Program-made: the position numbers and the translations under genes
Notes under the pieces: model-generated
The model's database searches: none
What the model saw: the letters and a program-made list of their open reading frames with translations, nothing else
Told to the model about the DNA's origin: nothing
Shown: positions 4,009 through 7,196 of the stretch, piece by piece
How the letters are laid out: each line of letters begins with the position of its first letter
Position numbering within the stretch: position 1 is the stretch's first letter
From: Clostridiaceae bacterium
Lineage (GTDB): Bacteria; Bacillota; Clostridia; Lachnospirales; Lachnospiraceae
NCBI GenBank assembly: GCA_021200535.1
Contig: JAJQGL010000114.1
Span: forward strand, 1,171 to 65,170
Direction: 5' to 3'
Length of the DNA: 64,000 nt

Positions 4009-4470
4009 CTATTCCATAGCAGGAATCCCTGCTTTACCCGCACTTTCTAACGTAATTTCACGATAATCCATGCCCTGTTTCAGATCTTTTTTGATAGACA
4101 CGGAAATCCAGTCCTCTGGCAGGATTTCCTGAATCAGATCTGCCCATTCAATCAAACAGACTCCGCCCCCATAAAAATAATCCTCATAACCAATTTCATC
4201 CATTTCCTCAATATCTGCAATCCTATACACATCAAAATGATAAAATGGCAGCCTTCCGGATTCATAAACCTGCAGTATAGTAAAAGTCGGACTGGAAATT
4301 GGCTCATCAATTCCCAGTCCTTTCCCAAGGCCCTTCGAAAATACAGTTTTCCCTACTCCAAGATCTCCATATAATAATATCACGGCACCCGGCTGGCAGC
4401 TTTTCCCTATCTGCTCCCCCAGGGCAAAGGTAGCCTCTGCCGAATCACTGGAAAATACCTGTTTATGCAT
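4009..4470 (-). CDS. tsaE: tRNA threonylcarbamoyladenosine biosynthesis ATPase TsaE
   Basis: Walker A GDLGVGKT, SSPTFTI, YHFDVYRI, LIEWA. Confidence 0.96.
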   Translation of the reverse strand: MHKQVFSSDSAEATFALGEQIGKSCQPGAVILLYGDLGVGKTVFSKGLGKGLGIDEPISSPTFTILQVYESGRLPFYHFDVYRIADIEEMDEIGYEDYFYGGGVCLIEWADLIQEILPEDWISVSIKKDLKQGMDYREITLESAGKAGIPAME

Positions 4471-5020
4471 CTTCCTTTTCCCCTTTCACCTCTTCCGGAT
4501 CGTTCTCCCGGTCATAATCGAACGCATCATAATCCTTATATTTTCGAACCTGCTCCTTTACAAGCGTACATACCGTGTCAAACTGTCCGCCGCATTGTTC
4601 CTTCGGAAAAATAAACGCGCGCATAGCAGACATATACAAATACAGGCTTTTCTTTGTGGCCACTACCTTTCGGATATCATACCACTTCACCTCTGCTTCC
4701 TGCTCGTCCTGCCGGACTGTGATGCCTTCCTCCATCAGAATATAATGCAGAGACGCGTTGATATTTTCATTTTTCCGAACCTGTGCCCGACATTTAAAAT
4801 ACAGAATCAACGGCTGCACAACCGGAAACAATACTCCGACAAACGCCAACAGCAGCAGCGTTGACGGTTCATACCCATCCCGGTTCACCACCGCCAGGAC
4901 GATGGCGGCAAAACTGAAAAGCAGCCCAAAAATCCCTGACAGGCTAAAATACGCATGCCGCATGGTAAATCGGTATAATTCAGAAACTTTTAGTTTCACA
5001 TCAAATTCAATCGGTTTCAT
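4463..5020 (-). CDS. YcxB-family membrane protein
   Basis: Two TM helices followed by VKWYDI...LYLY...AFIFPK, a YcxB-like C-terminus. ATG 5020 is preceded by AAAGGA (ORF track start 5047). Confidence 0.7.
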   Translation of the reverse strand: MKPIEFDVKLKVSELYRFTMRHAYFSLSGIFGLLFSFAAIVLAVVNRDGYEPSTLLLLAFVGVLFPVVQPLILYFKCRAQVRKNENINASLHYILMEEGITVRQDEQEAEVKWYDIRKVVATKKSLYLYMSAMRAFIFPKEQCGGQFDTVCTLVKEQVRKYKDYDAFDYDRENDPEEVKGEKEDA

Positions 5021-5125
5021 ATATCTCCATCCTTTTCTTTGCGTCAAATGCAGGGCAAAACACCCCTAATCCTCATCCCATTATATCAAAAGACACAAAA
5101 AAAACAATATACCGGACGCCCCGTT

Positions 5126-5320
5126 TGTGATACAATAAACGCATGCGAGGGTGCAACAAGATCATGAAGCGTCAGATTCATGATATAATGAGCGTTAGCG
5201 AGCGGGAGCAGGCAGAGCCTATTCATCGCGAGCGGCGAATGACGATCATGAACAGCTGCGCAAGCAGCGATAGAGCGCGAAAGCGCGGGTTCATGATACA
5301 ATAAGTATTAGCGAACGGCA
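5126..5320 (+). repeat. Modular structured repeat: three degenerate 25-bp direct repeats plus nested hairpins with GNRA tetraloops (candidate ncRNA or REP/MITE-like element)
   Basis: TGATACAATAAACGCATGCGAGGGT (5128), TGATATAATGAGCGTTAGCGAGCGG (5181), TGATACAATAAGTATTAGCGAACGG (5294). Stems: ATCATGAA/TTCATGAT (5161-5184) and ATCATGAAC/GTTCATGAT (5245-5297), the latter enclosing GCTGC-GCAA-GCAGC and GCGC-GAAA-GCGC. Confidence 0.7.
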
Positions 5321-5351
5321 AATGACGATGAAAATTTTAAGAGGTAGCAGC

Positions 5352-7196
5352 ATGAATAAATTAAAAGAACAAATTGAACAGGAGCTGAATTTTAATACAA
5401 TCACAGCAATCTGCGAACATCTGACCGATGCGGTTCAGGAAATGCTGGACTCATGCGGCATGTATTTCCGCATTTTTTCCCGCGTCAAATCAGTCGATTC
5501 CATTGCTGAAAAAATTGAACGCGGCCGTTATGGAACAGAATACAATCCCAAAAAAATCCAGGATCTTGTCGGGCTTCGCGTCGTGCTTTACTATTATGAT
5601 GACCTCAGTATCTGCCGGGACATCATGGAAAGCACATTCCAGATGATTGATGACTGGTCCAGGCCAAAATATAACGCAGATGAATTTCGCGCCACCAAGA
5701 TAAACGGCGTCTTCCGCTTTCCAAGCGAATATTTCAGTCTGTATAAAAGCCCGCTTTGGACGCTTCCGATTGACACCACCTTTGAGATCCAGTTCCGTAC
5801 CGTCTTTTTTGAGGGCTGGCATGAGATCGAACACGATATGCGCTATAAAAGCATCCTGTCTGACAGAGATTTCTGGCAGGGCAGCGAAGAGCTTTCCCGT
5901 ATTTTAAACTGTATTCTGGCAAATCTGGAGCTGAGCGACTGGTCGCTGGTGCAGCTGTTTGAAGAGCTGTCCTATAACCATTACAAACTGGCAAATTGGG
6001 AAATGATGCTGAAAAGCAAATATCGCATCAAAATGCAGCCAAACGAAACGCTCGATCCACGTATTATTGCTGTTTTTGACCGCGACAGAGAAATTGCCAA
6101 ACCGTTTTTTAAGGCATCCCGGAAAACTTTGATTAAGGAGCTTCTCAAGCTGGATCATCCGCATCTAAGCTACGACCTGATCATCCGCCTGATGAATGAC
6201 CGTGTTGTACACAATGAAGAGCTGGCAGCTATCTGCGAGGAAGTTTCCCTTTCAAGCATCGAGCGTTCCTACCAGAAAAGCACACTGGCACGTCTGGAGT
6301 CCAATGTTTTATTTCATCTGGAGCTGCCGCTGCTGCACAAAGAAACCAGATCCTTTCAATCCGAATTTCACAATGCGGCAGCCATCTTATATAAATGGGC
6401 ACGCTTCAAATTAAACCCGGTATTTGAATATATTCCCGCAGAGCTGTCAAATTACGATGCCATATTGCCGGGATACCAGCTAAAAACAAGCTATGACTGC
6501 GAAAACCTGTCGTTTTCCATGAAATTACAATATATTGACAGTGAAACCCCGGGAACACTCTGGCACGTTCACTCCTCGCTGGAATATCTCGAGGACGGAC
6601 AGCTGCATTTTTATCATATGACATCCCGCGACATGCCAAAAAGCGTCACCCAGAAAACGACCTTCCTAAAGCCGTCCTTCCTCCACGATTTATCCAAACG
6701 AATCGGCATTATGGATGTCGTGCGCATCGGAAGCAAGGTAAGCTATGTCCGAAACCAGAAAGAACTGGAACAGCTCGCCTGCCTGATCCGGCATTCCAAA
6801 AGGAAACTTCCGGTTGTCGCTATTATACAAAATACGGGCAAGCCATCAGACGGCCGCTCCCAGGAAAAATACGGTGAATATGATATGACAACCTTTACAA
6901 TCAACGGCACCCGGCTTTCAAAAGTTGTCGGACACTATTGTCATGTTTATATGGTTGATTATGAGATGGCAGAAGCATTTGCCTCTGTATTTGATCTCCC
7001 TGCGCCGGATACGATTGGCAGCATCTGTGTCTATTGGCCAAAAGCCACGCGCAAGGAAATGGATTTTTTTACCAGAAAAATGGTAATTGATACACAGTTT
7101 GATTTTAATAAGCTTGCTTTTCATGATGATAACATTTATGAAAAAGCATTCCGGCATAAACTGGTTCAAATGATGAAGCAATTTAATGTAATGTAA
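5352..7196 (+). CDS. RelA/SpoT-type (SAS-like) nucleotidyltransferase domain fused to a large C-terminal region of unknown function
   Basis: RVKSVDSIAEK (RxKxxxSxxxK), DLVGLRVV, FEIQFRT and WHEIEHDMRYK. No HD hydrolase, TGS or ACT domain recognised. AGAGGT precedes ATG 5352 (ORF track start 5322). Confidence 0.85.
   Translation: MNKLKEQIEQELNFNTITAICEHLTDAVQEMLDSCGMYFRIFSRVKSVDSIAEKIERGRYGTEYNPKKIQDLVGLRVVLYYYDDLSICRDIMESTFQMIDDWSRPKYNADEFRATKINGVFRFPSEYFSLYKSPLWTLPIDTTFEIQFRTVFFEGWHEIEHDMRYKSILSDRDFWQGSEELSRILNCILANLELSDWSLVQLFEELSYNHYKLANWEMMLKSKYRIKMQPNETLDPRIIAVFDRDREIAKPFFKASRKTLIKELLKLDHPHLSYDLIIRLMNDRVVHNEELAAICEEVSLSSIERSYQKSTLARLESNVLFHLELPLLHKETRSFQSEFHNAAAILYKWARFKLNPVFEYIPAELSNYDAILPGYQLKTSYDCENLSFSMKLQYIDSETPGTLWHVHSSLEYLEDGQLHFYHMTSRDMPKSVTQKTTFLKPSFLHDLSKRIGIMDVVRIGSKVSYVRNQKELEQLACLIRHSKRKLPVVAIIQNTGKPSDGRSQEKYGEYDMTTFTINGTRLSKVVGHYCHVYMVDYEMAEAFASVFDLPAPDTIGSICVYWPKATRKEMDFFTRKMVIDTQFDFNKLAFHDDNIYEKAFRHKLVQMMKQFNVM

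What the first reader, a model, noticed from the sequence alone, without database searches (positions are those of the whole stretch)
5126..5320. Modular GNRA-capped structured repeat directly upstream of the RelA/SpoT-like gene (candidate RNA antitoxin or unknown ncRNA)
Seen: three equally registered 25-nt repeats (TGATAYAATRA.....GCGARSG at 5128, 5181, 5294), each containing an extended -10-like TGnTAYAAT. Between them lie closed stems built from ATCATGAA/TTCATGAT; the second forms a three-way junction with GCAA and GAAA tetraloops. GNRA loops on the + strand only suggest polarity, the same as the downstream gene, and the last repeat ends about 30 nt before its RBS. Known: type III toxin-antitoxin systems (ToxIN, CptIN, TenpIN) use tandem structured RNA repeats upstream of the toxin. 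Inference: this could be an RNA-regulated alarmone-synthetase module, a tandem promoter array, or an unrelated REP/MITE-like insertion.
Basis: partly seen in the sequence, partly recalled or inferred. Interest (0 to 1): 0.7.

Follow-up and report, generated by a model that had tools for sequence, protein, structure and literature searches.

The report
Dispersed promoter-docked hairpin repeat array
The structured repeat in front of the RelA/SpoT-like gene is not a private RNA antitoxin: it is one of about 57 copies of a modular hairpin repeat that usually sits just after a promoter -10 box, upstream of unrelated genes, in this and other Lachnospiraceae genomes.

Summary
The three 25-nt repeats, the ATCATGAA/TTCATGAT stems and the GNRA-capped junction are real and favour the + strand. 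They are the seams of a mosaic repeat, not a dedicated element. Window 5141-5333 consists of modules (a, c, hairpin H, insert L) found in 57 arrays (128 modules) in this 2.9-Mb Jutongia-like genome, upstream of unrelated genes. All 24 genus relatives searched keep the RelA/SpoT-like gene. The 11 orthologous upstream regions I read lack the array, and a search of the relatives found only partial copies in three genomes, none of them upstream of the gene. Where alignable, those regions keep a native -10 box at the position where the array begins here.

Arrays start directly after a -10-like ATGATAYAAT, are unidirectional, and point at the downstream gene in 40 of 50 cases. Each unit ends in a hairpin plus TATAAT, which re-creates an extended -10. 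The two-hairpin unit occurs in 22 of 151 Lachnospiraceae genera sampled and covaries strongly (93% paired, 19 of 20 pairs with compensatory changes). It has no Rfam match, and I found no paper describing it.

Best reading: an undescribed mobile or mosaic promoter-and-leader cassette of the BOX/Correia/REP kind.

The parts
5079..5088 (-). CATTATATCA, which reads TGATATAATG on the - strand. It is a -10-like box facing the divergent YcxB-like gene, is native sequence and is not part of the repeat.
   Evidence: Nearly invariant ATTATA.CAA block in orthologous intergenic regions. Inverted match to 5181-5190.
5126..5136 (+). TGTGATACAAT, the native extended -10 (TRTGnTAnAAT type) of the RelA/SpoT-like gene. 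It marks the left docking point of the array.
   Evidence: Relatives have TATGGTATGAT or TATGGTATAAT at the same distance (24-25 nt) from the conserved AAAAAAACAATAYAC box. This stretch is unique in the genome.
5137..5159 (+). A 4-nt filler (AAAC) followed by the 3' part of module a (GCATGCGAGGGTGCAACAA, module positions 23-41). The 5' half of the module is missing.
   Evidence: Genome-wide coverage rises from 1 to more than 20 copies at 5141. Module definition; coordinates.
5160..5184 (+). Hairpin H, short-loop form: GATCATGAA-GCGTCAGA-TTCATGAT.
   Evidence: There are 38 short-loop H copies in the genome. The stem is kept by compensatory changes within the genus and across genera.
5181..5189 (+). 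Junction box TGATATAAT, a perfect extended -10 formed by the 3' arm of H plus ATAAT.
   Evidence: TTCATGATAYAAT occurs 30 times in or next to arrays and once elsewhere in the genome.
5190..5243 (+). Module c: an irregular hairpin with GA/GA internal loops flanked by G-C pairs (GCGAGCGG ... GCGAGCGG).
   Evidence: There are 11 copies in the genome. Homologous modules with covarying central stems occur in other genera.
5244..5297 (+). Hairpin H with the 37-nt insert L (5253-5289) in its loop. This is the three-way junction with GCAA and GAAA tetraloops.
   Evidence: There are 16 L inserts in the genome. Long-loop versions occur in other genera.
5294..5302 (+). Terminal junction box TGATACAAT, an extended -10 located 50 nt upstream of the start codon. 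It carries the same rare C variant as the native box at 5128-5136.
5303..5333 (+). Remnant of another module c with an internal deletion (AAGTATTAGCGAACGGCAAATGACGATGAAA). It forms the ragged 3' end of the array.
   Evidence: Direct repeat D2 (5228-5246 versus 5311-5329, 89%). Gapped alignment to module c.
5339..5354 (+). Ribosome-binding site AAGAGG and the ATG (5352) of the 614-aa RelA_SpoT-domain gene (5352-7196).

Best explanation
Window 5141-5333 is one array of an undescribed, strand-specific, modular interspersed repeat of Lachnospiraceae. A unit is a structured leader module (types a, b, c), then hairpin H (short loop or with insert L), then ATAAT. Units are joined head to tail. The array sits immediately 3' of a pre-existing promoter -10 hexamer, here TGTGATACAAT of the RelA/SpoT-like gene. 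Because every unit ends in (CA)TGATAYAAT, each one re-creates an extended -10 box in front of the next unit or of the gene.

Shown: the dispersal, the modular grammar, the docking at a -10 box, co-orientation with downstream genes, that no array was found upstream of this gene in the relatives examined, conservation of the fold by compensatory changes across genera, and the + strand polarity.

Inferred: the array is transcribed from the native -10 as a structured 5' leader, the two internal boxes act as extra promoters for the gene, and the family spreads as a non-autonomous mobile or recombining element. Its enzyme and intermediate (single-stranded DNA or RNA) are unknown. Its link to the alarmone-synthetase gene is incidental.
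For: Dispersal:
- BLAST of the 233-nt stretch gives 63 pieces in the genome.
- A module library tiles 57 unidirectional arrays with 128 modules, 15 of them at contig ends.
- The downstream genes are unrelated to each other.

Docking at a -10 box:
- In 45 arrays the first module starts right after ATGATAYAAT.
- The A in TGA occurs in 31 of 45 cases, against 23% at other intergenic TGNTAYAAT sites (p = 8e-11).
- A -35 with at least 4 of 6 matches is present in 31% of flanks, against 14% of random intergenic sites (p = 0.003).
- At this locus relatives have a native -10 at the same position and no array.

Orientation: the downstream gene is co-oriented in 40 of 50 arrays (p = 2e-5).

Structure:
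- The + strand folds with z = -3.3 and the - strand with z = -0.4.
- Every module is more stable on the + strand.
- The a+H unit is 98% paired, with 6 covarying pairs and 0 of 500 shuffles reaching the observed score.
- The c+H unit in 37 distinct copies from about 20 genera is 93% paired, with 19 of 20 pairs showing double changes and a covariation score of 0.54 against at most 0.10 in slid controls.

Generality:
- The covariance model matches 22 of 151 genera.
- The same grammar, co-oriented genes and truncated last units appear in G110, G112, G125, G164, G258 and G273.

Transcription units: promoter (11 of 12 matches, with TG), then one unit, then a terminator in G001; one array in G000 ends in a terminator.
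Against: - Transcription, start sites and promoter activity of the junction boxes are inferences from sequence.
- The junction boxes have no usable -35.
- No autonomous partner was found. The IS200-type TnpA copies have unrelated end hairpins, no long element carries the ATCATGAA arms as terminal repeats, and no transposase recurs next to arrays.
- No presence/absence polymorphism between strains was seen, so mobility itself is inferred from copy number, patchy distribution and high identity between copies.
- A second orthologous 'empty site' comparison was uninformative.
- The 80% co-orientation could partly reflect a replication-strand bias rather than promoters.
- The large covariation alignment was fitted to the model, which inflates pairing.
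Confidence: 0.6

Rival explanations
1. Type III toxin-antitoxin, or another dedicated RNA partner of the RelA/SpoT-like protein. In this reading the repeats are processed into an RNA that neutralises or regulates the synthetase.
For: The repeats are structured and + strand specific, and they lie directly upstream of the gene. AU-rich AUAUAAU linkers between stable hairpins resemble processing sites (inference only).
Against: There are 57 arrays upstream of unrelated genes. No array was seen upstream of the orthologous gene in the 11 relatives read, and the similarity search of 24 genus genomes placed none there. There is no tandem array. The protein has only a RelA_SpoT domain and no ToxN, AbiQ or other nuclease match. 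The genome has no ToxN, and ToxN presence does not correlate with the repeat across 18 genomes.
Confidence: 0.02
2. A shared cis-acting RNA leader, that is, a regulon signal. The two-hairpin unit with its GA/GA internal loops would be bound by a trans factor (a protein or small RNA) that co-regulates stability or translation of the many mRNAs that carry it. In this reading, copy number reflects function rather than selfish spread.
For: Strong compensatory covariation and conserved single-stranded motifs (GAGCG..AGCGAG, GGCGARCGGCGAAUG, AUAAU) occur across about 20 genera while stem sequences drift. Units start at the position expected for a transcript 5' end, so hairpin 1 would be a 5'-terminal stem-loop (inference). 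Stand-alone promoter-unit-terminator loci look like small RNA genes.
Against: Copy number ranges from 0 to about 26 per genome across genera and is patchy within the genus: 4 of 25 genomes matched this array's sequence. The downstream genes share no function. Units are often truncated at arbitrary points. Copies within a genome are 88-100% identical, as expected for recent spread.
Confidence: 0.2
3. A purely selfish single-stranded-DNA element, similar to IS200/IS605-type palindrome-associated elements or REP/RAYT elements. It would insert 3' of the sequence ATAAT. Its resemblance to promoters would then be a by-product of an AT-rich target, with no role in transcription.
For: The left junction is fixed 3' of a short specific sequence, there are no terminal inverted repeats, and a subterminal 3' hairpin is followed by the same pentanucleotide. 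Strand polarity is strict. Y1 transposase genes exist in the genome. The 80% co-orientation is close to the usual gene-strand bias of Firmicutes (from general knowledge).
Against: The TnpA-bearing elements have different end hairpins. There is no second, left-end hairpin of the same kind. The rare base variant of the -10 box tends to be the same at the left flank and at the right end of an array in this genome (7 of 8 informative arrays; Fisher p = 0.048 for C/T), which that mechanism does not predict. That match was not reproduced in G110. At this locus the left box is the native promoter by position.
Confidence: 0.15

Closest known systems
Correia elements (CREE/NEMIS) of Neisseria
   Same: Both are small non-coding repeats in more than 100 copies, mostly immediately upstream of genes. 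Both carry sigma-70-type promoter boxes, are co-transcribed into structured RNA, and can rewire expression of neighbouring genes (PMC10969869).
   Different: Correia elements have terminal inverted repeats, a TA target duplication and an IHF site, and are single units in either orientation. The present family has no terminal inverted repeats and forms head-to-tail unidirectional arrays of interchangeable modules. It starts exactly after a -10 hexamer.
BOX elements of Streptococcus pneumoniae (boxA-boxB(n)-boxC)
   Same: Both have a modular build with variable module number, occur in a Firmicute host, lie in intergenic regions near promoters, have a stable predicted RNA structure, and form clusters and nested copies (PMC10969869; the module grammar is from memory).
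   Different: There is no sequence similarity. BOX has a fixed A...C frame, whereas here any leader module can follow any junction. BOX is not reported to dock at -10 hexamers or to regenerate them.
REP/BIME/REPIN elements mobilised by RAYT (Y1 HUH) transposases
   Same: Both are short palindromic units combined into mosaics, with single-strand hairpins as the likely recognised form and species-specific expansions.
   Different: REPs usually lie downstream of genes, occur in alternating orientation, carry a GTAG or CGTC tag and flank a RAYT gene (PMC3733652 abstract; the rest from memory). Here the arrays lie upstream, are unidirectional and have no associated RAYT.
Putative mobile promoters ('promoter reuse in prokaryotes')
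   Same: Both involve highly similar promoter-bearing sequences found upstream of unrelated genes within and between genomes (PMC3575422 abstract).
   Different: That work is a statistical catalogue without a defined structured unit. Here the promoter box is the seam of a covarying two-hairpin module.
Type III antitoxin RNAs (ToxI, CptI, TenpI)
   Same: Both are repeated structured RNA units on the strand of the downstream gene. CptIN was described in Lachnospiraceae (from memory).
   Different: Antitoxin repeats are exact tandem copies of 34-45 nt, private to one toxin gene and cut by that toxin. None of this holds here.

Membership tests
Type III toxin-antitoxin (ToxIN/CptIN/TenpIN) | Tandem, near-identical direct repeats immediately upstream of the toxin gene | tested here: not met
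   TRF finds no tandem array in 5000-5400. The three repeats are 66-83% alike and are spaced 53 and 113 nt apart.
Type III toxin-antitoxin (ToxIN/CptIN/TenpIN) | The downstream gene encodes a ToxN/AbiQ/CptN/TenpN-type endoribonuclease | tested here: not met
   Pfam gives only RelA_SpoT. PADLOC gives only weak, unrelated hits. There is no PF13958 match anywhere in the genome. CptN and TenpN profiles were not searched separately.
Type III toxin-antitoxin (ToxIN/CptIN/TenpIN) | The RNA repeats co-occur with the toxin gene in relatives | tested here: not met
   The gene is present in 24 of 24 genus genomes. None of the 11 upstream regions read has an array. The similarity search found only partial copies, in three genomes and at other loci.
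MITE (non-autonomous DDE transposon) | Terminal inverted repeats at the two ends of the element | tested here: not met
   Arrays begin with a leader module and end with hairpin plus ATAAT or a truncated module. The only inverted repeat is the internal hairpin H.
MITE (non-autonomous DDE transposon) | Target-site duplication flanking each copy | tested here: inconclusive
   In G000 the rare variant of the -10 hexamer matches between the left flank and the array end in 7 of 8 informative arrays. In G110 it matches in only 1-2 of 5.
MITE (non-autonomous DDE transposon) | A related autonomous element with the same ends in the genome or in relatives | tested here: not met
   No 0.3-4-kb segment bounded by the H arms holds a repeated gene. 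The genes downstream of arrays are unrelated. Only this genome was examined.
REP/REPIN with RAYT, or IS200/IS605-derived palindromic elements | Hairpins matching the ends of, or flanking, a Y1 (HUH) transposase gene | tested here: not met
   There are two full and one partial Y1_Tnp genes. Their flanking hairpins (CCCCAGC-AGA-GCTGGGG and similar) are unrelated to H.
Any Rfam family | Covariance-model match | tested here: not met
   cmscan of 4900-5500 on both strands at E up to 10 returned only two chance snoRNA matches outside the element.
Interspersed transcribed structured repeats (BOX/Correia/ERIC kind) | Many dispersed intergenic copies with a conserved single-strand fold | tested here: met
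   There are 57 arrays in the genome. Covariation is shown. Strand asymmetry of folding is shown.
Interspersed transcribed structured repeats (BOX/Correia/ERIC kind) | Copies are transcribed | not testable with these tools
Only the position downstream of -10 boxes and two promoter-unit-terminator loci point to transcription.

The most novel reading that the evidence does not exclude
The family is a promoter-docking mobile cassette. It inserts, in one polarity, at the 3' edge of -10 hexamers, possibly by using the melted promoter or a single-stranded intermediate, and it duplicates or re-creates the hexamer behind a hairpin that supplies the TG of an extended -10. It thereby adds promoters and a protein-binding, GA-motif 5' stem-loop to dozens of unrelated genes. 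It has spread between Lachnospiraceae genera, partly on integrative elements. That would be a previously unrecognised way in which bacterial promoters are targeted and multiplied.
Probability: 0.25. Interest if true: 0.7.

Novelty: new variant of a known kind. Interest (0 to 1): 0.42.

Why it matters
For this locus the result removes a false lead. The RelA/SpoT-like gene has no private RNA partner, and its unusual leader is an insertion its relatives lack. Its expression in this species may therefore be driven by up to three -10 boxes, two of them imported.

More broadly, the family is widespread (about 15% of sampled Lachnospiraceae genera, up to about 26 units per genome), strongly covarying and absent from Rfam. 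It breaks short-read assemblies: 15 of 57 arrays lie at contig ends. It will keep being mistaken for riboswitches, small RNAs or antitoxins. If the junction boxes are active, it is a natural portable promoter-and-leader part for gut Clostridia. It would also be a case where a repeat selects promoters as its landing site.

Tried and rejected
- Rfam found nothing in the element.
- Tandem-repeat reading: TRF found nothing.
- Plasmid origin: no match.
- Phage origin: only two unannotated gut 'Bacteriophage sp.' records at 82% over 80 nt, and one hit among 2.9 million viral contigs.
- IS200/IS605 partner: rejected because the end hairpins differ.
- Long autonomous element with H arms as terminal repeats: none found.
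- Recurrent gene next to arrays: none found.
- ToxN link: none found.
- Strain-level empty site: the only other contig encoding the identical protein starts inside the repeat. The YcxB product is not on record. An exact 32-nt left flank was not found in JGI metagenomes.
- A second orthologous promoter comparison, upstream of another array-bearing gene in contig C38 (probably a sigma factor, from its N-terminal sequence only): the upstream regions are too diverged to align.
- A MAFFT alignment of module c between G000 and G110 misaligned the central hairpin and gave no consensus. This was solved by building a covariance model from the better-aligned genera.
- The built-in promoter scan needs a -35 and so does not report the junction boxes.
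- The 53-aa ORF at 5143-5304 spans module seams that differ in every array, so I do not regard it as coding.

Full report
**The locus.** Window 5021-5351 is the divergent intergenic region between a YcxB-like gene (4463-5020, - strand; Pfam PF14317) and a 614-aa gene with an N-terminal RelA_SpoT domain (5352-7196, + strand; PF04607). The arms ATCATGAA/TTCATGAT pair as described. The + strand folds into hairpin 1 and a three-way junction capped by GCAA and GAAA, with z = -3.3, whereas the - strand gives z = -0.4. Rfam has nothing here, and TRF sees no tandem repeat.

**It is a dispersed repeat.**
- BLAST of the stretch against the window's own genome (2.9 Mb, 118 contigs) gives 63 pieces on many contigs.
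- Coverage along the query shows that 5021-5140 is unique and 5141-5304 is repeated 8-38 times.
- Reading all copies reveals a grammar. Leader modules a (41 nt), b (32 nt) or c (54 nt) are each followed by hairpin H (GATCATGAA-loop-TTCATGAT) and ATAAT. The loop is either 7-8 nt or the 37-nt insert L with two GNRA hairpins.
- A module library tiles 57 arrays with 128 modules, always on one strand within an array. Fifteen arrays lie at contig ends.
- In the window, the native box TGTGATACAAT (5126-5136) is followed by a 5'-truncated module a (5141-5159), H (5160-5184), the junction TGATATAAT, module c (5190-5243), H with L (5244-5297), the junction TGATACAAT, and an internally deleted module c remnant (5303-5333). 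The ribosome-binding site and ATG follow.

**No link to the synthetase gene.**
- Record titles of orthologues place the organism in or next to Jutongia, Lachnospiraceae.
- All 24 genus genomes searched have the gene at 55-70% identity.
- A BLAST of the array finds only partial module-a matches in three of them, none upstream of the gene.
- I aligned the upstream regions of 11 orthologues. Most keep the divergent YcxB-like gene and a conserved AAAAAAACAATAYAC box, and several have a TATGGTATGAT or TATGGTATAAT box 25 nt downstream of it. None has an array.
- In the window the native TGTGATACAAT lies at that same distance (24 nt), and the array begins 4 nt after it. The array is therefore an insertion between an ancestral -10 box and the gene.
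- Genes downstream of the other arrays are unrelated to each other.
- The genome has no ToxN-type gene. ToxN occurs in 2 of 10 carrier genomes and in 4 of 8 non-carrier genomes.

**Rules of placement.**
- In 45 arrays whose first module is intact, the module starts directly after a sequence with the consensus TTATGATAYAAT. The sequence further upstream is unique to each locus.
- This box is more specific than the genome's ordinary extended -10 sites. The A in TGA occurs in 31 of 45 cases against 23% elsewhere (p = 8e-11).
- The box is much less conserved than the modules themselves, as expected for a preferred target rather than part of the element.
- It differs from internal junctions at position -11 (T rather than C) and has a T-tract upstream, like the native boxes of relatives.
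- A -35 with at least 4 of 6 matches at 16-18 nt is found in 31% of left flanks against 14% of random intergenic sites (p = 0.003).
- The gene downstream is co-oriented in 40 of 50 arrays (p = 2e-5), typically 20-60 nt beyond the array.
- The 3' ends are ragged. Many arrays end inside a module at arbitrary points, and the same is seen in other genera. No explanation so far accounts for this asymmetry.
- In this genome the rare base variant of the hexamer (C, A, G or TCTA) tends to be the same at the left flank and at the last junction: 7 of 8 informative arrays, and Fisher p = 0.048 for C/T alone. Internal junctions are mostly T.
- That pattern would fit duplication of the target hexamer. It is not reproduced in genome G110, so I treat it as a lead only.

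**The structure is conserved.**
- Each module folds more stably on the + strand.
- For module a plus H from four Jutongia genomes, 98% of cells pair. Six pairs show changes on both sides (for example A-U/G-C at columns 8/34 and U-A/A-U at 18/25), no shuffle reaches the observed covariation, and a G-U pair fixes the polarity.
- Module c has counterparts in other genera in which the central stem differs but still pairs.
- A covariance model of c plus H matches 22 of 151 Lachnospiraceae genera, one genome sampled per genus. Several genomes have 16-26 matches, often in tandem.
- In 37 distinct matched units, 93% of cells pair and 19 of 20 pairs show compensatory changes (151 cells). The covariation score is 0.54, against 0.18 in shuffles and at most 0.10 in slid controls. 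This alignment was fitted to the model, which favours pairing, but the margin is large.
- Across genera the stem of H changes completely, whereas the single-stranded GAGCG..AGCGAG, GGCGARCGGCGAAUG and the 3' ATAAT stay.
- Modules a and c share GA/GA internal loops flanked by G-C pairs.

**Context in other genera.** The same placement is seen in G110, G112, G125, G164, G258 and G273: a -10-like box, then units, then a co-oriented gene. In G001 one unit lies between a near-consensus promoter (TTGACG-16-TGaTATAAT, 11 of 12 matches) and an intrinsic terminator. One array in G000 also ends in a terminator. In G123, a single-copy unit is the leader of what I take, from its N-terminal sequence alone, to be a tyrosine-integrase gene next to an XRE-like gene. 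Nearly identical units occur in three more genera, though I read the context only in G123. That points to transfer on integrative elements and could explain the patchy distribution.

**How it most likely works.** I take the element to be a non-autonomous mobile or recombining cassette that lands at promoter -10 boxes in one polarity.
- The native box would transcribe the array as a structured leader. With a start about 7 nt after the hexamer, the first hairpin would be 5'-terminal.
- Each junction box is a sequence-perfect extended -10 that could add -35-independent starts. At this gene the last box lies 50 nt upstream of the ATG.
- These functional steps are inferences. No reads could be examined, and the boxes lack a -35.
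- The mobilising activity is unknown. The IS200-type elements in the genome have unrelated hairpins. No long element has the H arms as ends.
- No strain polymorphism was found.
- Plasmids and phages are not the carriers.

**Comparison with known systems.** The nearest known systems are Correia elements (promoter-bearing, upstream of genes, co-transcribed; PMC10969869), pneumococcal BOX (modular) and REP/BIME mosaics. The family differs from all of them in three ways: it forms unidirectional head-to-tail arrays, lacks terminal inverted repeats, and docks at -10 hexamers that it re-creates. Searches of the paper library for its motifs and for such elements in Lachnospiraceae found nothing. Earlier notes of this scan describe several other undescribed hairpin repeats in Lachnospiraceae, one of them promoter-bearing. 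I treat these as unchecked leads, not as support.

**Verdict.** The antitoxin or dedicated-ncRNA interpretation is rejected. The element is a member of an undescribed but BOX/Correia-like class of interspersed structured repeats with an unusual promoter-docking habit. For this locus it is an ordinary insertion. The family itself is of moderate interest.

Noticed in passing
window 5079-5115, and alignment A2 of orthologous regions: The divergent promoter region between the YcxB-like gene and the RelA/SpoT-like gene contains two blocks conserved across the genus: ATTATA.CAA (a -10 box for the - strand gene) and AAAAAAACAATAYAC. The pairing of these two genes is conserved in most Jutongia genomes.
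   Followed up: partly
G000 contig C118:33033-33309 (outside the window): A long tandem array of a 20-nt unit (AATCGTCAGATTCATGATGG) derived from the loop and 3' arm of hairpin H. It is interrupted by an assembly gap and lies downstream of a module a.
   Followed up: no
G000 contigs C50:1800-2560 and C118:1-160 (outside the window): An IS605-like element (truncated tnpA plus tnpB) abuts repeat arrays at two loci, in opposite orientations, and cuts a module in each case. This looks like insertion of the IS into arrays rather than a functional link.
   Followed up: partly
L143:1488-1640 (G123); near-identical units in L144, L154 and L155: A near-identical single unit occurs in four different genera. 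In G123 it forms the leader of what appears, from its N-terminal sequence alone, to be a tyrosine-integrase gene next to an XRE-type regulator, that is, on a shared integrative element. The flanks in the other three genera were not read.
   Followed up: partly
L101-L110 (G110), alignment A3: A second repeated module in G110 (AAGCGCAAAAGAAAAACAAGCGGCGCGAAGCGGC...GCAGTCTGCGAAGCAGAC...GCACCGAAGGTGC...GAGTATGATACAAT) is rich in GCGAAGC-type mini-hairpins. It also ends in ATGATACAAT and alternates with the c-type units.
   Followed up: no
window 5352-7196: The RelA_SpoT-domain protein has about 450 residues after the synthetase domain with no Pfam match, and only weak PADLOC hits (PDC-S33, HEC-07). 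It is conserved well beyond the genus, in Butyribacter and Eubacterium-like genomes.
   Followed up: no
G000 C47:14519-14780 and L137 (G001 C20:18560-18820): These are promoter-array-terminator units with no downstream gene, so they are candidate stand-alone small RNA genes made of the same modules.
   Followed up: partly
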